Made by a program: the position numbers and the translations under genes. From Phyllosticta citribraziliensis (Eukaryota), in contig NW_027117347.1 in NCBI RefSeq assembly GCF_038025025.1, forward strand, positions 1,302,001-1,366,000: 64,000 nucleotides of DNA, read 5' to 3'. A model generated the notes under the pieces. The model worked only from the letters and a program-made list of their open reading frames with translations, had not been told where the DNA came from and made no database searches. This document shows positions 29,545-64,000 of the stretch, in pieces; the stretch's first letter is position 1, and each line of letters opens with the position of its first letter.

Positions 29545-32500
29545 CTAGGATTTCTGATGGCTCACTGCCCGATTTCCACGTTCGCCTATGGACCATGCAT
29601 GTCTGCCCGACACAGGCTCACCAAGCCAAGGTTCCGTGTCATGTGAAGGGCAGCGTTCTTCTGAAAGCTGAAAGAGCGTTTGTGCGAAGGACATAGACAA
29701 ATCTCCGTAGTTGACTGCGAGCCATAGGTACGCGCGCTCCGGTATGCGTGCGTCGAGAAAGGGAATCGCGGATACGACGGCGGTAAATCCGCATGCGTAG
29801 AGAATTAGTGCAAGTGCCGCAACAACTTGTCTCCATCCTTTGTATGGCCTCTCTACATCCTCTTGTCGGCATTCGCGGAGACTGCCGACACGCTCTGAGG
29901 TTGTCTCCTGTAGCCCGATGTGGTGACAACTGTACCGGACGATTCCACAGCGGAACTCCTTCCCAGAAGTCCAGTTTTGACCCCAGCTTTTGACCTGTTC
30001 CAAATTCTTGTTGGCATCTAGCAACATTCGAGATTTAGGGCCATAGACTTTCGCTAAATTTTGCACCACCAGCTCCTGAAGCTTCTCAGCTGTTCCGAAC
30101 TGCATCTTGTTCCCCAAGTCCGCAACTATACATGCCAAATACAGCACCAGTACGTCCCTGTTGAGCGGCTGAAAGTATTTATGGAATAGTGTTTCGAGGG
30201 TTTTCTCAGCGTCTTGGATGCGGTTCTCGCACATTTGCCATCGAAAAAGTTCAAATCTGGTGCTCATGACGAGCACTGGTCGATAACACGGACGTTCCAG
30301 GCTCCCGAGCGCCTCGATGGCCCAGTCGAAAAGATTTGCTACGTCTTGGCTTGATTCCCCTTGGCGAGACAAAGCTATCGCTAGGCGTAAGGTGGCCGTC
30401 GCCGTTTCCATAGTGCGTAGGCTAGGGAGACGCTGCTCGTCAATCTCCAAGACGGAACGCAAAATTTTAATCGCCTTGGTGGGATTACCCGTAGCGCAGT
30501 AAAGGTGACTCAATTGTAAAGCTGATCCGTATGATACTTCATTGGGCCGAATAAATGAAGAGGTCCATTTTTCGTGCGAAGACTCGAGCAGTGATCGTGC
30601 TTCATTCAAGAGACCGGTTTTCAGATAAAGCGATCCAAGGAAGCAACGGTCTATGAAAGACATATCATCAGGCGTTTCTTTGAGGATCTTTTCGAAGATC
30701 GCTTTGGCAGCATCGATATTCCCCATGGATATGTATGTTGCGCTAAGCAAGGAGCGTATCGTCTTGGTCCTGGTGTTTGACTCGCTCAAAGTGGTTTGGG
30801 CGAAATCCAGAGCTGGGACGAGCAACCTCTCGGCCTGGCCATACTTCCGTTCTCCCCGATATATCATGGCTAGACAGCATGTGGCTGCGAGACGTTCACG
30901 AGAATACGAGTTTTCGCCGTTCGCTTTGCATTCTTTGATAGCTCGCTGGTATGCTTTGGCTGCCTCTTTCAGGTTGGTCCTATTATTGTGGATTTGCCCC
31001 ATTCTAATGTGAGCTCGGATAGTGCTTTGTCCTGAATTCTGAGCACGGATTGTCTTGTATGTCTGGCATGCTTTTTGGTAGACTTCATTCCGTTTCTCGG
31101 CCATGGTAAGCTTTCCGTAAGATTCATGAAGAACTTCGTAGCACTGGAGTACTTTGTCAAAATCTTGTTTGCCCTCGTATTTCTTGGCAGCCATCGTTAT
31201 CATCGGAGTTGCGAGCCCAAAATCCTGGTATCCGGCAAGAAAGCGTCCGAGCGATAGAAGATATTTCCTTGGTGATCGAGGACTTTTCGAATAATACTCA
31301 GCGACAGGCAGAGCGTGTCGACGAATCCTCAGCTTCTGTGCAAGGTCTTCGCACTGGTCGTGCATATAGATGATTGTCGCAGCGATTCGGTATATATCTG
31401 GTTCCTCCTGGTTGCTTATTAAGCTTTTGCACCACGCGTGCACTACAGGATGCATAGAAAAGCTCGATTCGTCCTCTGAGCGGACAATGAGAGAAAGGTC
31501 CAAAAGAACTTTCATGGCGCGTTGGAACACTAGTGGATTCATTCGGAGTTCTTTTAGCGAGGAAGGATATTTGGAGCCAAGAGAGCTTTTTGATGAAGGC
31601 TTGAAGGCAAAGAGTTGGGACCATATGTCGTTTCGATCGAGGACAGCCCAGACTTTCAACAAGTCCTCGACAACATGGTCCTTCCCTTTCGCTCGTTCGA
31701 CGGAAATTTGCCATGTGGTCAGAAGTGTCCGTCCTTTGTAATCTTGCCGCGGCTCGTGTTCGTTGACCAACTCCGGCCACGAAGAGTTGTAGAGATCCAG
31801 GTAATCGTTCACAGACATGCCTAGTTGACCAATGTATGAGCCGGCGAGGGCGAGAGCAAGGGGCAAGCCTTCTAGCCTATTGATGAGTGGCCTCCAGTAG
31901 TTGGAATCTGAAACAAAAATCAGCTTTGACAAGATAATGCGGTTCCGTAATACCGTACCCCGTGGAGTCGGCGACCTTGCGTTAGCGTTCAAAATTGCAC
32001 AGGCTTCTTGGTCCGTGACAGAATCAACTTGTAGATCTTCGAAGCGTTGTCCCACGGACCGAAACCGACTTGTAATGAGAATGGAGCCATGCTCAGCTCT
32101 CGGAAGATATTCGTCCAGATCGTATGACTTCGAGTCCTTCGGATTGGACTGGTCATAGTCGACATTGTCGATAATGATGAGCCAATGCTTGTTGCCTGGC
32201 ATGGAAAGCCAATGTTGTATCGCGTCAATCTCTTTATCTTGTTCGTTACCAATACTCTCCCCCATTGGACTTGACGAATAATCAGGCATTCTGCGCAACA
32301 TGCGAGAAAACGAGTCTTTGAGATTCGATTTGGTCGAGCCGTCGAGCCAGAATACTGCGCTGTATCTGGAGTGGAAGTCTCGAGCGAACTTGACGGCCAG
32401 TTGTGTCTTGCCAATGCCACCAAGACCGTGGAGAAGGAAGACTTTGCGGCCGTCCCTCATAGGGTTCAGGAACTCCTCGAGCTTTTTCAGTTGAGACTCA

Positions 32501-33781
32501 CGCCCAATGAACCTGTCTGTCGTAGGTATATTTTCGAGACTAAACGCAACCTTGAATAGGTCGCCGGTATCTAACGGCATACATCAGACTTTGATTCGGC
32601 CCAAGGCAAAAGCCCACGCTCCGGTCGAGGGTAGCTCAGGGGCAAGTTACATTCTTTTCGTGCTCGCATGAGGCCAGGAGTTGCCTTGACCATTGCCCGG
32701 ATTTGAATCTCTACTTCTTGGAAACTTTGGTGATCTCGGCTCTCAAATTTGTTGATGTTGAAATGATTGCGGTTCAGCACAATTTTCTCCACTCCGTCCA
32801 GACGTCCTGACGATGGGCTCACCACGTAAGGCTGTAATGGTATTAGCAAAAGTATTTCCAGACTTTGATCGAAAGAACCACCTACCAACCTGTCCTTTTC
32901 TCCGCCTGTAAGTGCTCCAATATTACTGGGCACTGTTTCGGTAAAACAAGACACTAAGGGGGGATTGGGCTCGTTACGGACCGCATCGAATTCGGTCATG
33001 ATGCCCTCGAGCAGTTGATCATCGGCGCCTAAAGTTTGCAGCACAGAGGTGTCGACCTCATCTTCGTATTTCGCAACTGCCGCTGCGACCAATCTGCTTG
33101 TGAAGTCGCTTGTCGTTCCCCTGAAGGGAGTGCTGAAGAATGCTATGCCCATCGTTGACTCAAAGACTTTCCGGCGGTCGTCTTTCAGATGAGACGATAA
33201 AGATAGAGCCTGCAATTCTTAGTACCAATCGCTTGGAATTTCGTGTTGTACACTCACACGCATCAAGACTACTCCACCAAAGCAATGCGCAATGAAAATG
33301 ATAGGCCGATCGGAACATTCCTAGGTATTGATCAGTCATCATGGCTGCTTACACGCAAGGGCTTTGGAATTTTACTTGTCTTTTGAACTGTAAAGCACGC
33401 AGAAGACTGCTTGCAATATCCAGCACTCTTGCGCTAACCATTTCACTTCCAAACCACGCACTTGGATACCCGTATCTCATGATGCGAGCATTTGGCACTA
33501 TGGCAGGAAGCATTTCATGGTTTTGAAGCCAGTTGATCTTCGTCCCATCTTCGGTTTTCTGGACCCACGTGTCGTCCGGGTGTGCGCCGATCCCATGTAT
33601 CGCAATAATACTGGCAAGTATAAGTCGTTTCCTCACTATCAACAAGGCTGGGGCACTGACTCAAACTTTGGGTCTTCAGGTTCGTAGAAAGGACGCAGTC
33701 CAGTATCCCTTTCCTGTACCGGTCGAACCTAGACAGACCTATCAGCACTTGAATTGAACGTTATTGGACGCTTCTTACCAT
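29545..33781 (-). CDS. Fungal NLR-like STAND protein: SesB-like alpha/beta-hydrolase + NB-ARC + TPR repeats
   Basis: Spliced N-terminus M|VRPV...PKFD|IIAIHGIGAHPDDTW...RIMRYGY...RPIIFIAHCFGG...GIAFFSTPFRG...NHFNINKF. Intron 32571..32650 joins it in frame to the NB-ARC domain (FIGRE, GLGGIGKT, LIIIDNVD, ILITSR, GLPLAL, MHPVVH), followed by helical TPR-like repeats. The 3' end is taken from the ORF track and is less certain. Confidence 0.85.
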
Positions 33782-47866: not shown

Positions 47867-48907
47867 CAACACTCACGGGACAGAGCCGCTGAGCTCAACG
47901 GACGCTCCCGGGCCCAGTTGCGATGCCGAACAGCTTCTCCGTTGGTGTCGCTGAGCTCGTGAGCGACAGCTCCCTGGCCGCAGTCGTTAAGTCCGACAAC
48001 AGCCGCCTGGATGCAACTGCCGTGCTGGAAGCGGCTTTTCTTTGGGTTTACACTGTGGCGCTGACTGTTACCTTGACTCTGAGATTTGGATCTGGAATGG
48101 CGTTGGTTCTGCTTGGAAGTGTGATCACGCGGATTGATTTCTGGCGTTGGGATGGGCTTCAGGGTTGGGTGTGCTTCGACTTTCACTTGGCAGCGTTGCA
48201 AGTCGACGCCCGATCAAAGAGATGTTTACGAGTTTCGTTAAAATGAGATAGAAGTAAATGCGATAAGGCTTTGTTTCGACGAACGCCAGCCGTTCATGTG
48301 AGCAAGACACTCAGCCCTGGCGCTCATCCAACTTTGACAATTGAAATGCAAGCTCCCCTCAAGCAAAGCTTTTCCAACGCGAAATAAGGCAGTTCTGTTT
48401 TAGTGGTACCAGAGACCGCATTCAAGGTTTCAAACGGCGGTGTTGAGTCGAAACTTAGCTCTGTAGACCCTATGATACATCTCGGGGAGGCGGTTGGAAG
48501 GTTCATCCTTGCTTGGAGCAACCGAGTTGAACGAAACGGCGGGCCAGTTGACGGGAATTGGGGAATGGTCTTGAGAGGCTACCAGCATCAGTCCTACGGA
48601 AGTTATCATTAGGAATCTGGCAGAAGGAGATGGAAAAACGACCGAGCTTTTAGAGCAGAGAGACCAAACGTTTGCTTAACCAAGCCACCTACGGAAAGAT
48701 TGGTTGTTTCTCGCTTACTACCTAGCTTGCAGGCCGTTGTTTTGGGAATCCTATAATACCATCAAAACCTTGTTGACTTGGACATGGAGCTTCCTGGTAG
48801 TGGATTTCCTTGGGTGTTTGCTCGCGGTATTTATGTTAATTCTAGTCCCTGCTTTTCAAGAGCAAATATCCCCTTCATTCTTCGCAATCCATCAGCAGCA
48901 GGAAGAG

Positions 48908-49911
48908 ATGGCTTTGGTGTTGCCCACTTTGGGGGCGCAATATACCAATTCAGACGACGGGACCTTTTCACTGGCTGAGTTTCTAAAGAGCGATTTCTAG
49001 ATCGACAATAGAAGCTCTAATCTCATCATTACTTACCAAGACAGAAAATTTCACGTTTACAGCGTCTTACTATGTATAAGATCTGCCTTCTTTAGTAAAG
49101 AATGTAATCTAGGACTATCTTTTAAAGTTAGTTAAAGCATCCTCTACTCTTTAAAGATATAAGACTAAAGCTGACTTGCATTTACTTAGAAAGTCTTTAA
49201 GCAAGGAAAACAGGTTATCTTATTTAATAAAGAGGACCTACTTGCTATTTAGCTCATACTGTCCCCCTGCTATAGGTATAGTAAATAGGGACCTAGTAAA
49301 ACTTTAGCCACTACTAAATCTATATTTTTAAGCCTTAAAGAAAGGCTTTATTATATAGTCCTTCTATTTATAATTATAGATAAATATCTTTTCCTTTAGC
49401 TTAAGAGGATAGTAGTTCTAATCTTTAAATAACTATTAGAAGATTTGCTTTATAAAGTCTAGGCTAAGGAAGCAATCTATATTAATATCCCTATCTACTA
49501 AGAATTTCTCCCTATACTTAGGAAAACCATCGCCTATATTATAGAGTTTTCTAGTTAAGATAATTAGCTATACTATTTAGTTCTATATAGGGTTTTACAG
49601 TATATTAATAAACTTATACGCTAGATAAGCTTTATAGAGGAGCTTAATAGGATCTAAGACTTCTAGAAAGACCTAGTATAATTCTAGTATACTAATTCTA
49701 GACTTTAACTATATACGTGTCCTTCTTATAATAAAATTATTTAGATAGATTTAACTAGTTATCTAGTATTATAGAAACCTTTTAAATGCCCTTATTATAG
49801 TATAAGCTATAAGATTAAGTAGTAGAATTATAGATACCTAATATAATTAGATAGTTAGGGATATACTCCTAAGAATAATAAAGCTATAGTACTACCTACC
49901 TATAAAGAATA
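48908..49911 (+). pseudogene. RIP-inactivated BTB/zinc-ribbon gene (paralogue 3)
   Basis: Intact start MALVLPT...KSDF*, then SNLIITYQDRKFHVYSVLLCIRSAFFSKEC; intron ~49126..49189; then EDLLAI*LIL, LFIIIDKYLF, FIEELNRI*DF*K, TCPSY...FKCPYY. It is colinear with paralogue 2, shows no frameshift, and its stops are TAG/TAA. The 3' end is approximate. Confidence 0.85.
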
Positions 49912-51181
49912 GAGGGTAATTTTAGATTATATATATCCTATAAGTTTAAAGCTTAAAAATTCTATAGTTTAGTTACTCTATAGTCTTTTAGTTATTATTA
50001 TTATACTATAATCACGTCTTAGGTTTCCTATTATAGCCTAGGTTTATATAGACTAGGTAATTAGTAGTATAGGTAGATTAGATAGATATAATAAAACTAC
50101 CCTAAAGCTATAGGCTATATACGCGCCCTAGCTACTTCCTATAGTATAACTAGCTAGTTACTAATACCTCTAATACTATATAAATTTATATAGTATTATT
50201 TATAATATTAACTACTATACCTTATATTATAAAGGTATAGGTATATATATATACCTATACCTTACCTACTATTTTAACTTAGTAATAATAATCTATAGTA
50301 TTAAGTTTTAACTATCTCTCTCTCTATTTATACCTCTATTTATAGGTTATCTAGGCCTAGTAGCTATTTATCTTTACTATTATTACTATTACTATTATCC
50401 CTAGCTACTATATTACTCCTACTATTACTCCTATTATTACTCTCCTTATTATTAGTCTAAGGATAGGTAGGGAAAACCTCTTTATATAATATATCTATTA
50501 TTATAATAGGTATACACGCGCCTATATAAGTACTAGGGCCAGTATAGATAAACCTAGTATTATATAGTTATAGGAAGTATGAGCCTCACCTTAAGTAGTA
50601 GCCTACTATAGCTTAGGCTAAAACCTATAGGCTAGTACTAGCTACTATAGCCTAGTACTAGCTACTATAGCCCTAGGCAGATACTATATAATAGCCTATT
50701 AATACCTTACCTTTATAACTTACCTAATAATAACTAAGGACCCTTATATAAAGGATAAGAGGTAGAATAGTATAAAGGAAGGACTAGGAAATATATAAGT
50801 AGTAAGTATCTTTTATATTTTATTCTTTTAACTTATTAGATTTAATTAAGATATATATATATTCTCTAGTAGTTTACCTTTAGCCCTTACCTATATAATA
50901 AGAAATCTATAAGTTATAATAGATATAAAAGATTATTCTAAGTTTTAGCTCTATCCTACTTCTTTACCTATAAAGGTATTATAATATTTAACCTAAGTAA
51001 TATTATATATAGCTATAGTCTTATATAAGACTACTTATTACTTTTCCCTAGTAAACCTAAGTCATCTTTATTAGGCGCATTAGTATTATCTAAGGACTAA
51101 GGAGTATTAAGTATATATTAACTATAGAAGTCTTTAGTTAAGGCTATAGAGTAGTATATAAATATCTAGAAGGTATCCTAT

Positions 51182-51354
51182 TATTATAAGTTCGGTTAGG
51201 ACGTCTTTTTTTAAGTAAGGATTGTATTATTATTATCTCTATCTTAGCCCTAGGGCCCTACTTATTCTTATCTACTTACTTATACTACTAAGCCTGCTAG
51301 CTAGTACCTGCCTTGCTTACCTAAGGCGTCCCTAACTATCCGCGGACTATAATA
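51182..51354. repeat. Left LTR (3' LTR relative to gag-pol)
   Basis: Aligns without gaps to 62791..62963 with 11 differences, all transitions. The termini TATTATA...TATAATA are the RIP products of TGTCGCA...TGCGACA. Confidence 0.93.
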
Positions 51355-51501
51355 GTAGTAGCTAAAAATAAAGGAGTCGTTCTTAACTTAGAATTTACTA
51401 TCCTCCTCTACCTATTAAGAAACGTCCCCTTTTTAGGACAAGAAAGGAAAGAAAAGGAAGTAAAGAAAGAAAGAAAGAAATAAGTCTATACTAAGATGTA
51501 T

Positions 51502-54405
51502 TTAGTTACTAGCCTCTCTATCCTTATCTATATTAGACTAGTCCTTACTGCCCGTCCCGTCATCATTATAAGGCGGGGCTAATAGTAGGATAAGCAGGTT
51601 CTTCTATATATTAGTACTATAACCGCTTTTATCTTCTCCTAATACAGGCACGTAACGCATAATGGTGCCCGTATCTATATAGAAATTAGGGTGTATATAT
51701 CTACTAGGAATACGGCTTATAAACTAGTTAGTAAACCCTATATCGGCGCCTAGGAATTACTCTACTAGGCCATCTACATCTTATAGCATGTATAGCATGA
51801 GTAGCTATAAAGCGAGCAGTCTAGCGATCTATAGGTGTTTTAGGGGGTCATTATTAATATACTAGATTAGGCAGCTTAATCCTATATAGAAAGTAAGGTT
51901 GTTAACTACTATATTAGAGATAAACTTATTAGGGATGATTCCTCTAATAATAAGGTATATAGCTTAATAAGGTTCTATTATAAGGAGTATAGCTGTCAGG
52001 TCAGTATAGTAGTAGAGACAGCCTACTTTACCTAGGTTAGGATATTAATAGATCGCGTAGTTTACTAAGTATCCTAGGGAAGCGGCTTTAATAGTATTAG
52101 TAATATTACTATAGTTAGCAGGATCGTTATTAGGGATTAAAGGGTCTTTTATACTAGTACTAGAACTAATATTATTATTATTATTATTAGGTTTACCTAG
52201 AAGTGGCTTGTCCTAAGTTGTAAGTAGGGCGTCATCAGCGTCTACTATAAATATAGCATGATTAGGGTAGTCTAGGTAAACCTATAGTATAAGCTTATCT
52301 AGGCCTTTAGGTTTCTTATCCTATAATAACGTCTCCCTATTAGGAGGGGGCATACCTTAAAGCATCTCTATAAGCTCTACTTTATTATTATTAATAGGAT
52401 AGTTATATTAGTACCGACCCGCTCCTACTCTAGAAGTGTAAAACTTAGTGCCTATAGACTACTTATTTCTGCTTTTTATAAGGGTAGTAGTAAATATATA
52501 GATCTCTACTAGTAGCATGTTGCCTCTTATTGCGCGGTCTATTACGATAGTATAGTGGCCCTGCCCGTTCTATATTTCTTACTTATAAAGGTGCTGCTTT
52601 ATACCCTTAGGGACTGGGATGTCCTTATATATAGAGAAAAGCAGTCTATTATAACTATAGATAGTAAGGCCTCCTATTGCCTAGAGGTGCATCTTATTAA
52701 TATTAGGGTTACTAGGCTCCTTCCTACTAATATACTTATTATAGCCTTCCCTACTAATAAGTCTATACTGCTTTATAAGTATTATATACTAGATTTCACC
52801 GTCCTCATCTTAGTAGTATAAGGCCTGTCTATTAGGGTAATAATATAGGTTCAGTCCTCTATCTTTATAGTAAAATAGCTAGATTTAGTAGAGGTTGCGG
52901 AACTTAAGATCTGTTATTACTTAGTAAGCTAAGTAGTAGAGGGCCCCTATTATTATAGAGGACAGGCTTATACTAGGTAGGGGAAGGTACTAATCTTTAA
53001 TAAATATGCCTAAAATATAGTTAATAATAGGAAAGTTACTAGTATCTATAAGGAATATAGTGTCCTAGTCCTATTTACACTCTATAAAAGTCTTAGGGTT
53101 ATAGAATAGACGGTATATACTTTCCTTTAGGAACGACTAGTCACCTATTTTACCTTAGGGACTAACTACTACTAGTTTATCTAGTATAATATTAGGCGCG
53201 CCCCTTAGTTTCTTTAATTATATAGTAATATTTAGTGTGCTAGCGGCCTTCCCTATTTTCTTTATCTTCTATAGCATGGCTAGTCCCTTAGGGTCCGCCC
53301 TTTCTTTTCTCTACCTTAGTATTAAGGTATCTAGGAATTCCTTTCCTAAATCTACATCATTATTAGGAACTTAGGGCACGCGTTAAATTATAGCTATAAT
53401 AATTTTATTAGCATTATAGGAAGTATTAGTAAGTTAGTAGGTTTACTTTCTAATAGTAGAATTCTAGGCCTATAGGTCTATATTAGTAACGTCTACCGTT
53501 TTATAGCTTACCTTAACCTATAGAGTTACTCTAATCGCACCAAAATTAGGAGGCGTCTGTATTAGGTAAGAAGCTAGTATTCTTATACTAAGAAGGCTTA
53601 TAGCTAGGTTAGGGGTAAGACTAGGTTAAGGTATAGTTTCTAGTAAGAAGGTAGGCTTCTACTATCTCTTATCCTTAGTATCCTCCTCTAATTCCTTAGT
53701 AGTAAAGCGCTTGCGCTTATTACTATAATTAGTGTTATACTTCCTTATATATATATCTAGTATACTGCTATCTTTATTATCTTAGTAGAAGCTATAGGTC
53801 TGGCATTTTAAGCCTCTAGCCCCTAACACGCCGTGTCCTTATATAGTTATAGATGGTGCATTTATTATTAGTATATCTACTATTAGCGTCGCGGTGCTGT
53901 TATATAGGATAGTATTAAAGAAGTCTGCTATCTCTTTATTATTAGTAACTTAGTTTAGCGCGTCCTATTATAAACACTTACTAGTATTAGGAGAAAAGCA
54001 GTTATTCTACACTTCTAGTCTAGGGATGGCGTCATTTTACTTAAGGGTAGACGCGCTATTACTAGTAGTAGGGGTGTTATTTAGTATTACATTTACTAGG
54101 ACCGCGCCCGTATTAGGTGCTATATTATTAGGTACTATATTATATAAAAGGTCCTGCCGTTCTTATAGGCTAGTAATAGCTATTAGGGTAGCACTAGTAA
54201 GTCTATTCCTATTATAGTCTAAAGGCCAACTATATTAGTCTCTTAGGCGGCTTATACGTTCACGTTATAGGTAAGGTTATATAGTAAGGTTAGTATAGGG
54301 TTATAAGTTAATATTCTATAGACCCTAATATTAATTAGGCACTTATACTATAGCTAGTACTAGTCGCCCTACTAACGCACGGTCCTCTTCTTGCTTAGTA
54401 ATGCT
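51502..54405 (-). pseudogene. Extra ~970-codon ORF of unknown function downstream of pol inside the LTR element
   Basis: Three segments translated by eye (~53600-54405, ~52200-52500, ~51502-52170) all give protein-like text in one frame that differs from the pol frame, with TAA/TAG stops typical of RIP. Confidence 0.65.
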
Positions 54406-54455
54406 TAAGTATATAAAATATTTTTAGTAGTAATATTCTTATAGGCCTCCCTTTA

Positions 54456-57400
54456 CTAGGAGGTACTTAGGCGCGCCTTACTAGCTCCTTCTATAAGATA
54501 GGTGCTAACTTAGTACTCTTCTTTAGTAGCTTAGGGTTTCTTCTCCTTATTCTTTATACCTAGTAGACGACCTTACTGCTTTAGCACTATAGGGATAACC
54601 ATTTCTAGTAGCGCATATAGTAGTTTATCATATAATAGCCTGCCCTATAGTAGTTTATTACGCGCCTTAGTAGGTAGCAGCTTAACTATATTATCATTTT
54701 CCTCTAGGTCCTTAGGCACTATAGTAGTGTATTAAGGCGGTCCTGGTTTCTATTAGGGCCTATACTAGTCTAGCTTTACTATTATCTCCTTATTTATCCT
54801 TATATTACATTCTTTAATAAGATCTATTGCCCCCTCTAAGTCGTCTAAGTTATACTATACTTAATGCTATAGCCCCTAGCCTTTCTAGTTAACTAAGTAT
54901 TATAGTTTCCTAGTCCTATAATGTTTATATCTATCTACTAAGCGTAAGATTTTATACTTAGGCGCTGGCTTATTAGTGTTAATAATAGGTCCTAGCTCTA
55001 ATATAGTATTATACTTAAAAGGGTCGGGGCTGTCCTTTTCCTTTTCTAATTAGGAGATGTTAATAACTAGATAAATCCTTAAACTACTAGGGATAGCCAG
55101 TTTATAGGCCTATATACTAACTACTTATATTACTTTATAAGGTCCTATATGTGTGTTCTAGAGTTTCTATAGTAGGTTACTATATACCTTATAACTATAG
55201 TATAACTATAGATACACCTTGTCCCCTAGTTTAAATTAGACTAGATAGTACTTGCCGTCGTATTACTCCTTTTATACTACTACTATAAAAGCGAGGGCTT
55301 CTTAGGCTTTAGCATAGTAGTCTAAATAGAGGGTTTTTAAGTCTATATCCTTAGTAGATTCTACCTAGTTATACCCATCGTCCTATAGGTTAAATTTATA
55401 TAAGATTTTATAGGGGGTACATCCTATTAAGGTGTTTTAAGAAGAATTTATAGTCCCCTAGATATAAGGGAGAGCGTCTACCTAACTCTAATTAGGGTTA
55501 GCTATAATAAAGAAGTATAGGGTGATCTCTACTATCTAGTTAGTATACTTACTTTATCTATCTATCTAGGGATAGTAAGTAGTAGTAGTATTTAGATCGA
55601 TTTTTATTATTTTAAAAATGCTACTTATAAATCGCCCTAGCTAATAGGAGTCCCGGTCTATAATTATAATAGAAGGTAGACCCTATCTATATCTATAGAG
55701 TTCTTTAAACTATAAACCTCTCTAATTACCTATAGTCTAGGTCTCTTAACTAGGGATTAGCAAGATTGCTTTAGAAAATTTATAGGTTATAGTTAGAAGT
55801 ATATTAAAACCCCCTTTACTATATATAGGCAGCTTAGTAATAAAATTAATATATATAGTAAAGAAGGGGACCTTTACTACTATAATAGAGACTATTAACC
55901 TATTAGGTTTATATTAAGGTGTTTAGTTAATATAACAGTTAGGATAGTAATTAATATACACCTATATCTACTAGTATAGGTGCCTTATATAGTAGTAAGT
56001 ATAAATATAATCTATATATTAGTCTATACCTTAATAGAAACGCTAATTATATACTTATTTAAATACTACTTACTTATAGCTTTAGGAAATATATAGCTGT
56101 TCTTACTAGTCTCCTAAGTAGTCTATAAAGTAGATTAGCCCTTTCTATAGAAAGAAGTATAGACTAGAGACTAGTCCTTTATAGGGGTCCTTATTTTCTT
56201 CTATATCCCTAAGAGGAACGGGCTCTATAGTAGTAATAGGGGCTGGCGTTGCTATAGGTATAGGGTTTATACTAGCAGGTTACTCTATAGTTATTATAGG
56301 GTTTACTAGCCTATAGTTATATTCCTACTACTACTTAAGGGCCTGCTCTAAAATATAGAGCACCTTTACCTATTATATATTAGTACTATACGCTATATAG
56401 AGCTCTTACTTAAATCTATTAGAGAGCTCTACTAATACTATATAGAAGTAAGTAGTAGCGTCGCTACCTTCTAAGGTATACTAAACTAGGTCCTTATTAT
56501 TAGGGAATTCTATAGTATTAAGGGTATTATCTATATCTATAGTCGCCTTAGATAGTAATTAGCTTAGTATATTAGGGATGATATAGTTCCTCCCTAGCTA
56601 GTACTATACCTTTAATAGATACTAGCTTAGGTATTAGCTTATATATATTAGACGTAGGTTTAGCTGCTCTATAGATTAGGAGTTTCTAAAGTATAGCTGT
56701 TATATAATAGTAGTAACTACTAAATAGTTAGTAAATACCTAAGTATCCTTAGAGGCCTATATTAGTATTTATAATTTCTTAACCGCCTAAACGACTCCTA
56801 TTATCTTAAGCTTAGTAGTCTAGTATCTCATCTTAGCTCCTAAAAGGCGCTAGAATAGAAAGGCTATTAGCTTAATAGACTACTTTAGAAAGTCCTTAGC
56901 CTTCTTAAGCTAATTTATAGTAGGGTTTTCACCCTCTACGTTCTCTATATTTATAGTAGGAGTCTAGTCTTCTATAACTAGTTTAAGATTACCTTTTATA
57001 TAGTAGGCTATTATGCTAAAACCTAACTCTTTACTAGCATCTATATTAATAAAGAGGGGTCTCTTAGGCACGTAGTAAAAACGCCATTATATTTTATAAA
57101 GGGTCGTTTATATAGCCTTAAATAATGCTACTAGTACTAGGGAGTCTAGTAGTGCCTATACCACTATATATTAGCAGCGCGCTTATTTATCTTTAGGAGC
57201 GCTTTATAATAGCACGGTCTTTATAGCTTCTAGTAGTTCTACTAGTTATATATAGTAGGGATAGTTATCTTATAGCTAGCTAGTAAGCCCTATAAAGGTT
57301 TCTAGTTCTTAGAGGGTCCTTAGGAATTTAAGGTCTTTTAGAGCTTAGATCTTAGCTTCTAATATTATAATACTAAATCTAGATACCTACTATTCTAATA

Positions 57401-59110
57401 GCATAATAGATAGGTATCCTAACTAGGACTTCTTAGTACTTAGGCTTATATTTATACTATTAAGGATAGTAAATACCTTTTTAAGGTAATCTAGGTATTT
57501 TTCTAATATTTTAGAGAAAATAGTAATATTATTAATATATATTTATATAAAAGCGTAGCAGTCCTAAAAAAGAGTATTATACTACTATTATATATACTAT
57601 ATAGAGTTATAGTATCCTATTAGGGCCACGTTTAACTATTTAGCACTCTAGTAGATAAGTATAATCAGCTTATATTAGTTGTTAGGATGGATCTGCTACT
57701 AATAGAAGAAAGAGATAGCATCTACTACTAAGATATAAAGATAGCCCTAGATATTAGAGATAATATTAGCAGCTAGAGAGAGTAGCTATAAGTCCTTCTT
57801 ACTAATAGTATTAAGGGCTTATATATCTATAACTACTTATCCTTTCTACTCTAGGGTCCTATTCTCTCTAGGGACTAGCTTCTATACTATAAATATAGAG
57901 AAGCTAAGATAAGTATCTCTATATACCTATTCTACTTTTCCTTATTTATATATAGGGTTAAGCGTGGCGTCTTAGAATTTATAGTCCCTTTAGGATGTAG
58001 GGTATAGTCTTTAATATTTAAAATATTTATACTAGCCTAGGACTAATAGTATCCTTATCTAATCCTTTTTAGGAACCTTAATAAATCCCTTTTAATTATA
58101 GAAAAGATCTTAAAACTAATCTACTAGTTTCTAGTATAGTAACTAGACCTTAGGGGTCCTAAATATAGTAATGCTATTATTAAGCTTGGCCTCCTTTATA
58201 ATAGGGATAGTAGGGTTTAAACTAGCTAGGCTATATTCTATATCTATAAGGCGGTACGCCCTATTAAATTCTATAGTAATAATGCTACCTAGCCGTGTAT
58301 TCTAGGAGATTATAAGAGGCCGATCTAAGTTATTTCTAGTAATAATCTAGTTTATATCTATACTAGTAACTATAGTATAAAGGGTACCCCCCTTTTATAG
58401 GAAGGGTATAGGATGTGCGGTTTTATTAGGATAGAACTTATATACTTAGTAAGGGAGGTCTAGTTCTAGAATTTTAATAAGCAGCTTTATCTAGAACTAT
58501 AGGGGTATCGTCGTATTCCTTATAGTATATATATATTAGTAGATAGGAGTAGAAAACAGCTTAGTTATTATACTAGTATTTAGTCCCTTAGGCCCTATAT
58601 ATAGCTATACTACTTAGTTCTAACTAATATTAATAATTACCCCTTTAAGATGTAGGAGGTTATTCCCTATAAGTAGGGGGATATTTAACTTATTAGTTAT
58701 CTAAGTATAGTAGGGAAGAAAGCTAAGAGCCTATCCTATCTTAGTTTATCTAGATAAGTAAAGGGGAAGTATTATATAGTTAGCGCATTTTATCTTATAT
58801 CCTACTCTAGTAATAATTATAGGTTTCTTAAGTATTATTACCCTAATATTAGGGAGCTTTTCCTTTAAAAACATTCTATTTACTATTAAGGATAAGGCGC
58901 CTATATTAAGATATCTAATATCTACTATTTCTATAGGAGTCAGCCTAAAACTAATCTCTATTAATTAATATTTAGGAAATAGAGGCAGATCATCCCCTAT
59001 ACTAAGTCCTATAAAGGCTATAGACGACTCTAAGATTAGTACCTTTAGTTCTATATTAGATATAGCCTTATCCTTTATCTTCCTATATTTACTATTAACT
59101 ATATTAAACC
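54456..59110 (-). pseudogene. RIP-damaged pol (protease, RT, RNase H, integrase, chromodomain); ends approximate
   Basis: Protease YLNIGA (=LDTGA, ~58900); RT VVDAISFFY**, LNVALIGYYNS and YINNI (=YIDDI, 57525..57539); RNase H IDASKELGFS (~57020-57050); integrase TTYYP*IDR*SKYTN*IVE (=HPQTDGQSERTNQ, ~55530-55580); chromodomain YKILRLVD...YLVN*KG*G (~54810-54956). Protease, RT and chromodomain were checked to share one frame. Confidence 0.9.
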
Positions 59111-62100
59111 CTAATATAGTAAGGTAGACTGTTTAGTAATAGCATCTCTAACTAAGTATAAGAGCGCCTTACCTATAGCGCTATATTACCTATACTATAA
59201 GGCTAAGAGGAAAGATTAACGCCTACTAGAGGGCTATAACTACTAGAGTAAGGACATACTAAGAGGAGACGACGTATTACTTAGTTCTATTATCCTAATA
59301 GCTTTTAGGTACTAGTTATCTACTAACTAGATAGTGCTCTATTTAGGTCCTAAATTCTTAAGCGGCCTAATACTTACTTAGTTTAAACTATATTTAAAAC
59401 CATTATCCCTTAGGTACTAGTATAACTTGTATTTAGAAGGGAAGCTTATCTAGTAGCTATTATATACTTTTTAGGGATTAAGTACTATTATATTACTACT
59501 AGGAGTATAGTTAAAAGCGTCGTCCTAGATAAGTATATATTTATACTAGGAGTAGTAGTTGGCTCCTATTATAATTATAGGCTTACTATTATTTAACTAT
59601 AGCTTCTCCTTATTAGTTATAGGGGTCTCTATACTAGTATCCTTATTACTTTTAGTATCTTTACTTTCCTTATTACTATCCTCGCGCTTACTTTTAGAGC
59701 CATTCTAGGTGTAGTATTATATATATATAGTAGGTTTATAGTTATAGTTATAGTTATAGTCGCAACAATCCTTAGGCTTTAAGTAGGACCTAGAACTAGA
59801 CCCTTTTAGGTTAGGAGTAGGGAGTATACCCTACTTAGAGTAGGTTACCTATTTTATATTACTTAGTCCCTTAGCACTTATATTATACTAGGACGCTAAG
59901 TGCGCTCTATTAGATTAATTAAAAGGCTAGCTAGTAGTCTATATTAAAGTGCATCTCTAATTCTAGCCCTTAGGGAAGAATGCCTTACTAGTAGTAGTTA
60001 TATTAAAATATTAGGATAGGTATTCCTAAGTCTACTAGTAACTCTTAATATTCTTAATAAATACTTAGACTGTAGTGTTCGCTATAGGTTTAGGGATCTA
60101 CTACTAGAAGTAAGGGTTAATACGTGTATAGGTATTAGCTAACTAATTATATATAGTAGGGAAACTAGCAGCTCATCCTAGATATATATAGGTAATAATA
60201 AAGTCCCTTATACTTTTAGTATAGACCTCTAGGAGCCTAAAGTGTACTCTATTTAGTACTTTAATAGCTTTATATTATGTCATGCTAAAGTCTTTATATA
60301 GTAGTAAAGTCTAATTATTAATACTATATTTAGTACGCGTAAAAGCTCGGTCTTCCTCTATAAGTTAGGAGGCATACTATATATTTAATAATCCTTTTAG
60401 GCACTTCTATAGGTTGGTATAGATTAGATCTACTCTATAGGTAGCACAAGCTATTAAGGCGCTATTAATAAACTACTCTATAGCGCAGTATAAGACCTTC
60501 CCTTATTTAGTTATACTACCTCTATAGCTGACATCTTCTTCTAATAGATTAGGGTTAAAGTAACTAATATTATCTAGGTAGAAATGCTAGGTTATTCTTC
60601 TAGTATATAGTCCTAATACCTAGTTATACTCCTTATCGTCACCTATACCCTATAGGGGAATAAACTAAAAGGTAGTAGACTATTTATCCTCTTCTCTATC
60701 CCTAGGGGGAGGGGAGCTTAATAGGAGTGGCTCTTCTATTTTATACTAGGTGTACCTTTTCTAGTATCTCTATCCCTAGTTTTTACTAGAGAAATAGTTT
60801 CCCTCCTATAACTATAGTAGTCTTAGTACTACTTAGCCTCTACCTTAGGGCGCGCTCATTTTAAGTATAGATAGGTATATGCTAAGCTTCTTAAGTTACT
60901 TATTAACCCCCTTATTTATTATAGTAAGGTTTGTTATCTATGCTTTCTATTATTTAGAGAATATATCTTAGAGCATGTCTAGCTTTACTCCTAAAGATTC
61001 TAGGGTTATAGTAGGCTACTAGATCTCCTTAGTCTGGTCTATAGCGCTATACCGGTCGCGTGTATATAGTAGTGTCATATCACGTAGGGGCAGCTAGTTA
61101 TAGTATATACACCTTAGGGGAGGATTCTAGTTTCCTAGTAGCTATTAGTAGGAGAAAGGAAGACCGCCGTGTAGGTATTAGCTAAAACCTAGACCCGTGC
61201 CACTTTAAAAAACATTAGGTGGTTAACTAAAGGGTTAGTAAGAGCGGCCTTAAGGAAGCCTATAGCTAGGTAGGAAGGGAGGTTATCTAAACTAGCCTTT
61301 ATAAGTATAGCTAGTACCTTTACTAAAATTTAGTAGGATATAGTAGTCTTTAAAATTGTCGTCTATAGAAGAATAAGGACTCTATAGATTACGTTCTAGT
61401 TTATTATTTATAGGCGGGCTACTAGTATAGGTGACCGGCTGCTTTCCTTTAGAAGGTTTTAGTTAGGAAGTATAAGGGGGCGTTGCCTGCTTATCTTAGG
61501 GCTAGTACGGCCTTATACTTATATATATCTATAACTAGAGTTATTAATGGGTGCGTATAGAAGTAGAGTAATATAAAGAAGATGAGCGTCCTTAAGTTAG
61601 CGCGGGCGTTAGTAAAACGGGTTGTTAAGGCTCTATAGATAGTGTAGGTTATAGATAAATTGATATATAGTGTAGAGATTTTAATTAAGGTTATCTATAA
61701 AGTGAGGTGATGGGCGTTCGTGCCTAAGAAGAGGGTAGATCTACTAAGTAGATAATTAGTTGGCCCTTTCCCTATCTAGGCGTAGTATAGCCCCTAGTAG
61801 GAGGAGTGGGTCCTAATAGTTCCTAGATTAACCCTAGTATAACTTTTAGGGTAATTATAGCGGGTCCTAAAGGCGACTAGGGCGCTGTCTTAGCTTATAG
61901 CTAGGGAGGCGCTTTAAGGACCGTACCTAGAGCTAATACCTCTAGTATAGTAGGACGTCCTAGTATAGTTAGAGAAAGGCGCTAGAATAGATTATATAGG
62001 GACTAGGATACCCTTAAGCCTATACTTATATTATGTTAGCCTAGCTCCTTACGCGGCGTAGTTAGGACTAGGTTTAGCAGTAAACCTACTATATTAGTAG

Positions 62101-62700
62101 ATATTAGCGTGCTTAGTATTATAGTCCTTATACCCTTAGCTAGAGCCTCTTCTATACGTTCCTATTCTGTAACTACCAGGCAATTCTCTAGGAATAATTT
62201 AGTATAGGCGGTATTAACTCATTCTAAGGCTTACTAGAAAGTGGCCTGGTTTATACCTCCTATAGAATCCTAACGCACTAGATAATCTAGGCGCCTTTAA
62301 GATGCCTTAGCTTAATAAGTAGACACTCCCACGCTGCCTAGGGGCTTAAATATTTCTATAAGGAGGTTAATATAAGTCCTTACTACTAGGGTGATCTGTT
62401 TAAGCTATTACTTATATTTACTATAATAAAGGAAGGCCTTAAGCTGCTAGGTAGATAGTATATCCTCTTCTAAAACTAATATAGTAAACTTATTATTTAG
62501 GGACCGTGTTGCGGACGGTTCCTTATACTAGTACTAAGCATTAAAGGGAGGGGTAAGCGTAGTAGAAGTAAGGGTCCTACTATAACGACGCTAGTACTAG
62601 GTTATATAAGAAGGGAGATCCTTACTAGGCGCTATATAGAAGTGTATTATTAGCTATTTTAAGGAGATCTTCCTAGGTTTTAGTAGAAGTAGACTTATAG
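59105..62700 (-). pseudogene. RIP-damaged gag with probable long Pro-rich N-terminal extension; start uncertain
   Basis: DNISYFNPNL...GKVLYCAIE*FIN (=DDIGYFDP-type gag motif, ~60470-60580) in a frame offset from pol. The upstream ~2 kb translates as low-complexity Pro/Ser-rich sequence. Confidence 0.6.
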
Positions 62701-62790
62701 TATTTACGCGTCAGCAGTGATAAAGGTCCTAGATACAGGGGGGATGCTATAGTAAAAGGAAGTGCTATAGCGCTTTTAGCTACTAAATAA

Positions 62791-62963
62791 TATTATAAGT
62801 TTAGTTAGGACGTCTTTTTTTAAGTAAGGATTATATTATTATTATCTCTATCTTAGCCCTAGGGCCCTACTTATTCTTATCTACTTACTTATACTGCTAA
62901 GCCTACTAGCTAGTACCTGCCTTACTTACCTAAGGCGTCCCTAACTATCCGCAGACTGCGACA
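62791..62963. repeat. Right LTR (5' LTR relative to gag-pol)
   Basis: Ends in unmutated TGCGACA followed by the TSD CCTAT. Confidence 0.93.
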
Positions 62964-62968
62964 CCTAT

Positions 62969-64000
62969 CTATAACCTACTTAAGGGATATTCTAAGTAGA
63001 AGACTATAAAGATAGTATAGCTAAGAATAAAGCTAATATATCTAGTACTACTAAAGGTATTAGTACTAGTTAATTAACTTAATAAGATTTATATAAAGGG
63101 ACTAAAGATTTATATAATACTAGATACTTATTAAATAATAATAAGAGAGGACCTACCCCTATTCTCCTATATAATTTTTACTTAGTCTTAGTAGTAGAGG
63201 TAAAAGAATATACCTAAGACCTAGGGTTAACTTATATAGTTTAAGCTCTAGTTATAGAGGCATTTATAAAGGTACTATACTTAGATATTAATTAATTTAA
63301 ATCTAAGATTATATCCTTAAATAAGTCTTAAGTATAGTAGTAACTAAACTATATATAAAGGTAGAACTAGGCTCTTAAGTAAATACTCTTAAACTATACT
63401 AATAGACTTAGAGAAGTTCTAAGGGAAGGATATATTAGGCCCTCTTTATTAGCTTAGTACCTAAGACCTATTACCCTCTCTTAAGATCCTTCTACCTATA
63501 TAAGAGAAACTACTACTAAAACCTCTACTTTATCTTTAAGTAGTAAGAAATACTAAAGTAGTAAGGTTCCTAATCCTCCTCTTCTTACTAATAGAAAAGA
63601 CCCCTTATATAAATACTAGACCCTCCTTATATAAAATAAAATTAAATAAAACTATAATTACTTTACTAAAGATATAGTAGAGGAGACTAAATAGAATATT
63701 ATAGGTTATATTATTTCCTATATTAGTAGAGAAGTCTTATATTACCTAACTCCTTTCCTTACTTCTTATATAAAGGCTAATAAAGTTACTTTAAATAAGG
63801 ATATCTTTAAATTCCTAGATAACCTCCTCTAAAGTCTATATAAATATAAGGATATAAAGAAGTAGTTATACTCTCTTATATACTATATCCCTATAGACCT
63901 TTAGAAGTTTTAATTAAACTTTATATAATTAGCCTTAAATATAGATCTTCCCTAAGAATAGTAGAAAGAGGACTTTTATAATATAATAGATCCTCTTCTT
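62969..64000 (+). mobile_element. RIP-damaged host LTR retrotransposon (gag region), interrupted by the chromovirus and continuing beyond the window
   Basis: From 63563: KVPNPPLLTNRKDPLYKY*...NKIK*NYNYF...YIISYISREVLYYLTP, the RIP product of the fungal gag motif K.PDPP.LTDGKDP..E.W...K...N.DHF...Y..SR..GEA..HL.P. Its 5' part is presumably ~50500..51181. Confidence 0.7.

What the first reader, a model, noticed from the sequence alone, without database searches (positions are those of the whole stretch)
51502..54405. Chromovirus carries a ~970-codon extra ORF in the env position
Seen: about 3.1 kb lies between the end of pol (~54456) and the 3' LTR. Three sampled segments translate in one minus-strand frame from ~54405 (SITKQEEDRAL...) to 51502. 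They include a basic patch (NKRKRF), a low-complexity N-terminal half and a more globular-looking C-terminal half (VYLDYPNHAIFIVDADD...YPNLGKVGCL...FISRIPSRYIHPNFYIDTG). Known: typical fungal Gypsy elements encode only gag and pol; larger Gypsy elements are reported in Dothideomycetes (from memory, Rolly of Leptosphaeria maculans), so a relative may already be described. Inference: this is an accessory or cargo gene that travelled with the element, possibly an anti-silencing, chromatin-targeting or captured host function. I do not recognise any domain in it.
Basis: partly seen in the sequence, partly recalled or inferred. Interest (0 to 1): 0.8.

Follow-up and report, generated by a model that had tools for sequence, protein, structure and literature searches.

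The report
Dead extra gene in fungal retrotransposon
A mutation-riddled 11.8-kb Gypsy-type retrotransposon in a Phyllosticta fungus carries, after its polymerase gene, the decayed remains of a third gene of about 950 codons that resembles nothing known.

Summary
The region is not an open reading frame. The minus-strand frame from 54405 to 51502 holds 59 stop codons. It is nevertheless a real coding relic. That frame has far fewer stops than shuffled sequence, all of them TAA or TAG (the kind RIP makes), and its codon usage matches the RIP-damaged pol gene (+128 bits; best of 300 shuffles -0.2).

It lies inside one complete 11,782-bp LTR retrotransposon (51182-62963), with 173-nt LTRs and a 5-bp target duplication (CCTAT). 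Contigs from public runs show the empty site, other diverged copies over the region, and another copy's junction between LTR and the extra region.

The host is Phyllosticta: a flanking gene is 98% identical to a P. citribraziliensis protein. So this is not Rolly of Leptosphaeria.

No Pfam, PDB or protein-library match was found for the extra frame. The equally damaged pol finds intact relatives at E 1e-165. Those relatives share only about 50% of pol, so a fast-evolving gene could be missed.

Best reading: a sense-strand additional ORF between pol and the 3' LTR, of unknown family, killed by RIP. This is a known kind of feature, here in an undescribed fungal form.

The parts
51177..51181 (.). 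Target-site duplication, low side (CCTAT on the + strand)
   Evidence: Identical 5-mer at 62964-62968. The read laying joint 51176->62964 has 5 letters fitting both sides.
51182..51354 (-). 3' LTR, 173 nt
   Evidence: 162 of 173 positions identical to 62791-62963, and all 11 differences are transitions. Alignment and direct reading.
51424..51479 (-). CT-rich tract (51436-51479) followed by AAAAAGGGGA (51424-51433). This is the only polypurine-tract-like run, and it lies about 70 nt upstream of the LTR.
   Evidence: Read directly. Read laying skipped 51434-51490 as a repeat. A role as PPT is inference; no purine run touches the LTR.
51502..54405 (-). Relic of the additional ORF ('ORF3'), in the -1 frame relative to pol: 968 codons with 59 in-frame stops (30 TAA, 29 TAG, 0 TGA)
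   Evidence: Stop depletion against shuffles. A codon model trained on the RIP-damaged pol scores +16.7 to +38.3 bits in all five 600-nt windows and +128.1 in total, against a shuffle maximum of -0.2. No Pfam, PDB or protein-library match.
54666..59051 (-). pol (protease, RT, RNase H, integrase, chromodomain), RIP-degraded. The low end is extrapolated from the relative's stop codon.
   Evidence: tblastn places P0193 aa 1000-2437 on 59051-54810, E 8e-123. Pfam: SH3_Tf2-1 at 55040-55223 (36 bits, above cut-off), RT_RNaseH at 56702-56873 and RVT_1 at 57419-57578 (both below cut-off). Chromodomain text at about 54790-54941, aligned to relatives that carry PF00385.
60044..60583 (-). gag core, in a different frame from pol in this copy
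   Evidence: tblastn places P0193 aa 451-631 here, E 5e-8. 45% RIP-compatible identity against a 16% null.
62779..62785 (-). Possible start of the primer-binding site (TAGTAGC, which RIP could make from TGGTAGC), 5 nt inside the 5' LTR
Evidence: Read directly.
62791..62963 (-). 5' LTR, 173 nt, starting TGTCGC
   Evidence: Its outer edge coincides with the empty-site joint.
62964..62968 (.). Target-site duplication, high side (CCTAT)
   Evidence: The loose ends after 51181 in runs X1 and X2 read CTATAACCTA..., which is the sequence that follows 62968.

Best explanation
Positions 51502-54405 (minus strand) are the RIP-killed remnant of a third, sense-strand gene of a Ty3/Gypsy chromovirus family in a Phyllosticta genome. 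This is an 'additional ORF' (aORF) lying between pol and the 3' LTR.

Shown:
- The element is a single 11,782-bp insertion with 173-nt LTRs and a 5-bp target duplication.
- gag-pol occupies about 61933-54666.
- The 3.3 kb that follows carries, in one frame and in the same orientation, the codon usage and stop pattern of a RIP-mutated coding sequence.
- Other diverged copies contain this region.

Inferred:
- Before RIP it encoded a soluble protein of about 900-970 residues with no relative in current libraries, carried by the family as an accessory gene.
- It would have been transcribed within the full-length element RNA. It would have been translated either from a spliced or subgenomic RNA or by a -1 shift or re-initiation at the end of pol, because it sits in the -1 frame.
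- It would have acted in the element's own cycle (for example particle or nucleic-acid handling, nuclear entry, or countering host silencing), not as an envelope protein.

In this copy it is a pseudogene without function.
For: Coding relic:
- 59 stops against 100.6 +/- 9.2 in shuffles; the lowest of six frames was never below 70 in 500 shuffles.
- All 59 stops are TAA or TAG and none is TGA, as in pol (122 of 122).
- In pol, such stops lie opposite R (31), Q (25) and W (15) of the intact relative P0193, which shows that RIP made them.
- The pol-trained codon model is positive in 5 of 5 windows for this frame only. The total is +128.1 bits, or +113.2 with stop codons ignored. The maxima of 300 shuffles are -0.2 and 8.1.

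Part of the element:
- Target duplication CCTAT on both sides; LTRs 162/173 identical with 11 of 11 differences transitions.
- Contigs from runs X1 and X3 join 51170-51178 to 62964-62985, which is the empty site.
- Contigs at 80% likeness or more cover every bin from 51505 to 54510 in all 3 runs, with mostly C>T and G>A differences.
- One 882-nt contig of another copy runs from gag-side sequence through an LTR into 51345-51692.
- None of the 10 listed joints skips the region.
- No LTR-like or inverted terminal repeats bound it.

Separate gene rather than a pol extension: the intact relatives P0193 and P0001 end 48 and 18 residues after the last aligned chromodomain residue.

Not gag or pol-like: no similarity to 192 fetched proteins (best E 0.84) or to the rest of the window. 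RIP-aware alignment scores fall within the null.
Against: - It is not open, and no start codon, splice site or promoter can be named.
- Only one copy could be read. I could not show that other copies keep the frame, or that any copy is intact.
- No homologue was found anywhere, so protein coding rests on statistics alone.
- The codon model also gives single positive windows (+17.4 and +26.1) in RIP-damaged flanks of unknown nature.
- The runs laid are three small contig sets from one sample. No listed contig piece bridges the pol/ORF3 boundary near 54405.
- The frame change relative to pol could be an indel in this copy.
- No polypurine tract touches the 3' LTR.
Confidence: 0.6

Rival explanations
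1. The segment is a long C-terminal continuation of pol, making one giant gag-pol-X polyprotein. The -1 frame change near 54400 would then be an indel private to this decayed copy.
For: The pol frame keeps a weak coding signal for about 200-300 nt beyond the chromodomain, down to about 54450. The new frame takes over within the same 200 nt, with no clear gap. gag and pol are also in different frames here, although P0193 is a single ORF, so frame breaks do occur in this copy.
Against: The two nearest intact relatives stop 18 and 48 residues after the chromodomain alignment. P0002 and P0194 have tails of only about 100-150 residues.
Confidence: 0.12
2. The segment is a transduced host gene, or a piece of another mobile element, that an ancestor of the family picked up and that then spread with the family.
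For: It has the same orientation as the element and no sign of introns, as expected for sequence that passed through RNA. Gene transduction by LTR retrotransposons is documented in plants (PMC7264820, abstract).
Against: There were 0 hits among 1,835,955,588 protein representatives at E <= 0.001. With the same degree of RIP damage, pol finds relatives at 1e-143 to 1e-165, and even plant elements at 1e-22. Phyllosticta proteins appeared in the sister protein collection searched. There is no similarity to transposase, RT or integrase proteins.
Confidence: 0.12
3. The segment never coded for protein. It would be a long 3' untranslated or regulatory region, and its frame bias would be a by-product of composition and RIP.
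For: There is no homologue, no open frame and no start codon. Single positive codon-model windows occur in flanks of unknown nature.
Against: Dinucleotide-preserving shuffles never approach the observed stop deficit or codon score. The signal keeps one frame over 2.9 kb and survives removal of stop codons from the model. Base composition by codon position resembles that of pol.
Confidence: 0.1
4. The segment is a separate element that inserted into this one copy after integration.
For: Nested insertions are common in RIP-affected AT-rich blocks. This element itself sits inside a very high-copy repeat.
Against: Contigs of other diverged copies cover it, and one shows the LTR-to-segment junction. 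No joint skips it. It has no terminal repeats or target duplication of its own. Its strand and codon usage match pol.
Confidence: 0.04

Closest known systems
Additional ORFs (aORFs) of LTR retrotransposons lying between pol and the 3' LTR, in sense orientation (reviewed for plants by Vicient & Casacuberta 2020, PMC7264820; abstract read)
   Same: Position between pol and the 3' LTR, sense orientation, carried by the family rather than by one copy, function mostly unknown.
   Different: The host is an ascomycete fungus. The relic is about 900-970 codons long. There is no sign of env-like hydrophobic segments. No sequence similarity to anything was found. It is preserved only as a RIP-damaged relic.
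Fungal chromoviruses with an 'add. ORF' of unknown function, and elements longer than 13 kb (Novikova et al. 2010, PMC2864245; section 5 and the Figure 3 legend read, figure not seen)
   Same: Fungal Gypsy chromodomain elements of 4.4 to more than 13 kb, some drawn with an additional ORF of unknown function.
   Different: That survey did not include Phyllosticta or Botryosphaeriales. Its text gives no position, size or sequence for these ORFs, so homology could not be tested. The one supplement held as text had no mention of them.
brtn, the additional gene of Boty-like (BcGypsy1) elements of Botrytis cinerea (Zhao et al. 2011, known here only as cited in PMC8365987; passages read)
   Same: An extra gene of unknown function carried by a fungal Gypsy element.
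   Different: brtn is described as antisense. Here the signal is on the sense strand; four of the other five frames score negative in all five windows, and the plus frame antisense to these codons is weakly positive in two. No brtn sequence was available for comparison.
RLG_Rolly of Leptosphaeria maculans (Rouxel et al. 2011, PMC3105345, Table 4; Grandaubert et al. 2014, PMC4210507; passages read)
   Same: A RIP-degraded Ty3/Gypsy element of almost the same size (11,875 bp against 11,782 bp) in a Dothideomycete AT-rich block.
   Different: The host genus differs. The LTRs are 173 nt against 235 nt. Rolly is reported as specific to L. maculans 'brassicae'. Rolly's sequence and gene content were not available, so relatedness is untested.
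Intact relatives P0193 (2485 aa, on an 11,941-bp contig) and P0001 (1158 aa), unnamed ENA records
   Same: They are collinear with this element from the gag core to the chromodomain. Pol identity allowing for RIP is about 54%. In the P0193 contig, gag-pol takes 7.46 kb of 11.9 kb, which leaves room for the same architecture.
   Different: They belong to a different family (about half of pol residues differ). They are intact, not RIP-damaged. Their DNA downstream of pol could not be fetched, so it is unknown whether they carry the extra gene.

Membership tests
Ty3/Gypsy chromovirus (Metaviridae) | Two LTRs flanked by a short target-site duplication | tested here: met
   173-nt LTRs, 162/173 identical; 5-bp duplication CCTAT; empty-site contigs.
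Ty3/Gypsy chromovirus (Metaviridae) | pol with the order protease, RT, RNase H, integrase | tested here: met
   Collinear tblastn match to P0193 aa 1000-2437, E 8e-123. Pfam finds RVT_1, then RT_RNaseH, then SH3_Tf2-1 in that order, but only the last is above its cut-off.
Ty3/Gypsy chromovirus (Metaviridae) | Chromodomain at the C-terminus of integrase | tested here: met
   The alignment runs through the C-terminal chromodomain of P0001 and P0193, whose precomputed Pfam lists include PF00385. Pfam run directly on the RIP-damaged text did not detect it.
RLG_Rolly (Leptosphaeria maculans) | Resident in L. maculans 'brassicae' | tested here: not met
   The flanking NB-ARC/TPR gene is 98% identical to a Phyllosticta citribraziliensis protein and 51% identical to a P. 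citriasiana protein.
RLG_Rolly (Leptosphaeria maculans) | Size 11,875 bp with 235-bp LTRs (PMC3105345, Table 4) | tested here: not met
   The size is close (11,782 bp), but the LTRs are 173 nt.
RLG_Rolly (Leptosphaeria maculans) | Sequence similarity to the Rolly consensus | not testable with these tools
   No Rolly sequence or fungal TE library was available.
Sense aORF between pol and 3' LTR | Lies between pol and the 3' LTR on the sense strand | tested here: met
   51502-54405, minus strand like pol, in the -1 frame.
Sense aORF between pol and 3' LTR | Present in most copies of the family, not in one | tested here: inconclusive
   Diverged contigs cover the region in all 3 runs, and none of the 10 listed joints skips it. 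However, the runs come from one sample and consist of short contigs. No genome was held for a census.
Sense aORF between pol and 3' LTR | An open reading frame | tested here: not met
   59 in-frame stops; longest open run 55 codons. Only a relic remains in this copy.
env-like protein (Athila, errantivirus type) | Signal peptide and transmembrane segments | tested here: inconclusive
   The highest 19-residue hydropathy is 1.82, below the 2.25 reached by the RIP-damaged pol, which has no membrane segments. RIP distorts hydropathy, so this is weak evidence against.
brtn-type antisense gene (Boty) | Antisense to gag-pol | tested here: not met
   All three plus-strand frames score negative in total: -65.6, -197.0 and -189.8 bits.

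The most novel reading that the evidence does not exclude
The relic is the first sighting of an unknown protein family of about 950 residues. This family would be the conserved third gene of a lineage of ~12-kb fungal chromoviruses, including the intact relative whose 2485-aa gag-pol sits on an 11.9-kb contig. It would be a large sense-strand accessory gene that the element needs, for example to deal with host genome defence or to reach chromatin.
Probability: 0.3. Interest if true: 0.6.

Novelty: new variant of a known kind. Interest (0 to 1): 0.35.

Why it matters
LTR retrotransposons are usually taken to need only gag and pol. Extra genes carried by whole families are rare, and almost none has a known function. 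In fungi they have been noted only in passing.

A sense-strand accessory gene as large as pol's catalytic core would be a useful case for asking what such genes do, provided an intact copy can be found.

The work also gives a practical point. RIP-degraded coding sequence can be recognised by a codon model trained on the element's own damaged pol, and by the TAA/TAG-only stop pattern. Pfam misses most domains at this level of damage, whereas whole-protein HMMER searches still find relatives.

In this particular copy the gene is dead and has no present function.

Tried and rejected
Searches with the extra region that found nothing:
- Pfam on all six frames and on 72 overlapping tiles of the element: nothing in the extra region. 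The same scan put only 1 expected pol domain above its cut-off, so this negative carries little weight.
- Exhaustive HMMER search of 1.84 billion representatives with the extra frame, X at stops: 0 hits.
- PDB sequences: 0 hits at E <= 1.
- blastp and phmmer against 192 fetched proteins, and tblastx against the rest of the window: nothing significant.
- A RIP-aware alignment that scores each codon by its possible pre-RIP codons. It raised the pol scores strongly but left the extra frame within the shuffled null: 1107 against 1123 +/- 11, and 217.5 against 194.6 +/- 16.7 with a null maximum of 218.6. The scoring was not fully local.

Attempts to reach other copies or relatives:
- Whole genome: none is held, so the proposed census of copies and a de-RIP comparison could not be done.
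- The listing of cluster members: database switched off.
- ESM Atlas: it does not accept a reading with stops as X.
- The search for related loci with P0001 and P0193 in metagenome contigs, and with P0001 in viral contigs: no relatives. The DNA downstream of the intact relatives' pol was therefore not seen.

Other:
- Sequencing runs: only three small DNA contig sets from one sample hold parts of the stretch, and no RNA holder is listed. Nothing can be said on expression.
- Pfam on the flanking repeat (48900-51181 and 62964-64000, six frames): nothing.
- Earlier findings of this scan: none.
- Literature searches on Phyllosticta with 'transposable elements'/'repeat-induced point' or 'Gypsy', and on 'retrotransposon/ORF3/chromodomain/Ascomycota', found no description of this element.
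- Identity with Rolly was considered and rejected.
- An env-like protein was considered and not supported.
Full report
**Setting.** The window has normal composition (GC 48-69%) up to about 49 kb. It then becomes an AT-rich block (GC 26-40%) that runs to its end. In that block TpA/ApT is 1.7-1.95 and (CpA+TpG)/(ApC+GpT) is 0.02-0.34. In the gene-bearing part the values are 0.52 and 1.27. This is the signature of repeat-induced point mutation (RIP). A flanking NB-ARC/TPR gene (29545-32580, minus strand) is 98% identical to a named Phyllosticta citribraziliensis protein and 51% identical to one of P. citriasiana. The window therefore comes from Phyllosticta (Botryosphaeriales), not from Leptosphaeria.

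**The element.**
- A direct repeat pair lies 11,609 nt apart.
- Reading both ends and checking by script gives 173-nt LTRs at 51182-51354 and 62791-62963.
- The LTRs are 162/173 identical, and all 11 differences are transitions.
- They are flanked by the same 5-mer, CCTAT, at 51177-51181 and 62964-62968.
- The element is 11,782 bp long and lies on the minus strand.

Public contigs from three small runs of one sample contain joints from 51170-51178 to 62964-62985. One of these has 5 letters fitting both sides. Loose ends after 51181 read CTATAACCTA..., which is exactly the sequence after 62968. These are empty sites in other copies of the very high-copy repeat that the element landed in. The whole unit therefore inserted as one piece.

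**gag-pol.** Pfam sees little in the RIP-damaged text. Among 72 tiles, only SH3_Tf2-1 (55040-55223, 36 bits) passes its cut-off. RT_RNaseH (20.9 bits) and RVT_1 (12.6 bits) fall below theirs. No protease, integrase core, chromodomain or gag is reported.

Whole-protein HMMER search does see through the damage. The pol text, with X at stops, finds 72 proteins at E <= 0.001, led by P0001 (1158 aa, E 2.4e-143). Plant Gypsy elements appear at about 1e-22. Among longer proteins it finds 17 at E <= 1e-10, led by P0193 (2485 aa, E 1.3e-165), an intact gag-pol on an 11,941-bp contig.

tblastn places P0193 aa 1000-2437 on 59051-54810, and aa 451-631 (gag core) on 60583-60044 in another frame. Extrapolating from these, gag-pol spans about 61933-54666. 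P0193 and P0001 stop 48 and 18 residues after the aligned chromodomain.

Counting residues that C>T or G>A changes could explain, pol is about 54% identical to both relatives against a 16% null, and the gag core about 45%. These are relatives, not the same family. The in-frame stops in our pol lie mainly opposite R (31), Q (25) and W (15) of P0193, which is what RIP would produce.

**The finding itself.** Between about 54666 and 51354 lie 3.3 kb. No minus-strand frame of 80 codons or more is open there. It is, however, far from random.
- The other five frames have 73-161 stops.
- Dinucleotide shuffles give 100.6 +/- 9.2 stops per frame, and the lowest of six frames was never below 70 in 500 shuffles.
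- All 59 stops are TAA or TAG, as are all 122 in pol.
- A codon model trained on the sense frame of the damaged pol, against its five other frames, scores this frame +16.7, +38.3, +25.7, +30.4 and +22.8 bits in the five 600-nt windows.
- In the other frames the only positive window scores are +8.9 and +13.8, both in the plus frame that is antisense to the same codons.
- The total is +128.1 bits, or +113.2 if stop codons are left out of the model. The best of six frames in 300 shuffles reached -0.2 and 8.1 respectively.
- Base composition by codon position resembles that of pol.

The frame is -1 relative to pol. The pol frame's signal fades near 54450, and the new frame is clear from about 54200, so the start is uncertain by about 250 nt.

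One caveat applies. In the RIP-damaged flanks outside the element, single windows reach +17.4 and +26.1. These may be relics of other elements, but they show that a single window would not be convincing on its own.

**Does it belong to the element?**
- Contigs at 80% likeness or more cover every bin from 51505 to 54510 in all three runs.
- Their differences are mainly C>T and G>A: in X1, 181 and 238, against 62 T>C and 46 A>G. They are therefore other RIP-damaged copies.
- One 882-nt contig of another copy runs from 62591-62949 through an LTR into 51345-51692. So the LTR adjoins this segment elsewhere too.
- None of the 10 listed joints skips the segment.
- No terminal direct or inverted repeats bound it; only 20-31-nt chance matches were found.

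A private nested insert is therefore unlikely. The runs come from one sample, and no listed piece bridges the boundary at 54405. 'Present in most copies' is not proven.

**What does it encode?** No match was found.
- Pfam, six frames and tiles.
- 1,835,955,588 protein representatives at E <= 0.001.
- PDB at E <= 1.
- The rest of the window by tblastx.
- RIP-aware alignment, which raised pol scores strongly but left the extra frame within its shuffled null.

The pol control shows that this level of RIP does not blind HMMER. The segment is therefore not a diverged RT, integrase or transposase, not a member of a widespread conserved family, and not a recently captured host gene.

The nearest relatives in the library share only about half of pol. 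Between P0193 and this copy, only 181 residues of gag are detectable, at 47 bits. A gene evolving as fast as gag would fall near or below the threshold of the large search. The negative therefore does not show that relatives lack the gene. In P0193's contig, gag-pol fills 7.46 kb of 11.9 kb, which leaves room for the same layout. I could not fetch that DNA.

Hydropathy gives no hint of membrane segments. The maximum is 1.82, against 2.25 in the damaged pol. An envelope protein is thus not supported, although RIP distorts this measure.

**Comparison with what is known.** Additional ORFs between pol and the 3' LTR, sense or antisense, are a recognised feature of plant LTR retrotransposons (PMC7264820, abstract). 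For fungi, Novikova et al. 2010 report Gypsy elements of 4.4 to more than 13 kb and mark an 'add. ORF' of unknown function in a figure legend (PMC2864245, section 5). Boty-like elements of Botrytis carry the antisense gene brtn (cited in PMC8365987, passages). Muszewska et al. 2011 treated elements with many extra domains as nested 'complex transposons' (PMC3248453, passages).

Rolly of L. maculans has nearly the same size but 235-bp LTRs and a different host (PMC3105345, Table 4; PMC4210507, passages). My searches found no description of Phyllosticta retrotransposons. Supplements of the cited papers that were not held may contain more.

**Verdict.** It is a new variant of a known kind of feature. 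It is dead in this copy, and its function is unknown. It becomes interesting only if an intact homologue is found.

Noticed in passing
window 16966-23439 (+): A 2157-codon open frame combines a C-5 cytosine DNA methylase domain with SNF2 and Helicase_C domains. From memory, this architecture resembles the fungal DNMT5 type of methyltransferase. It lies about 26 kb from the RIP-affected block.
   Followed up: partly
window 50503-51181 and 62964-64000: The retrotransposon sits inside a repeat of very high copy number. Summed contig depth there is 200-1250, against about 1-10 over the element. Pfam finds nothing in six frames. The codon model gives +26.1 bits in one frame at 63564-64000.
   Followed up: partly
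window 59051-62790 (-): The gag core (60044-60583) is in a different frame from pol, whereas the intact relative P0193 is a single 2485-aa gag-pol ORF. The first ~450 and the middle ~370 residues of P0193 find no counterpart here. 60949-62148 shows no clear coding frame.
   Followed up: partly
window 51355-51479 (-): No purine-rich run touches the 3' LTR. The nearest candidates are GGTAGAGGAGGATAG (about 45 nt upstream) and AAAAAGGGGA (about 70 nt upstream), the latter preceded by a 44-nt CT-rich tract. Another copy shows nearly the same layout, with only small indels at 51368 and 51422.
   Followed up: no
window 52516-52821 (+): A 101-codon stop-free stretch lies on the opposite strand, in the frame that is codon-aligned antisense to the relic. 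That plus frame scores +13.8 bits in its window. It is most simply read as a by-product of the sense frame, but an antisense gene like brtn is not strictly excluded.
   Followed up: partly
window 29545-32580 (-) and 8645-9955 (-): An NB-ARC/TPR (NLR-like) gene is 98% identical to a Phyllosticta citribraziliensis protein. A second ORF carries eIF2B-epsilon-like hexapeptide domains.
   Followed up: no
window 54458-54489: A GC-rich 21-nt palindrome (AGGAGGTACTTAGGCGCGCCT / AGGCGCGCCTTACTAGCTCCT) lies exactly where the pol-frame signal ends and the extra frame begins. It is unusually GC-rich for this RIP-affected block.
   Followed up: no
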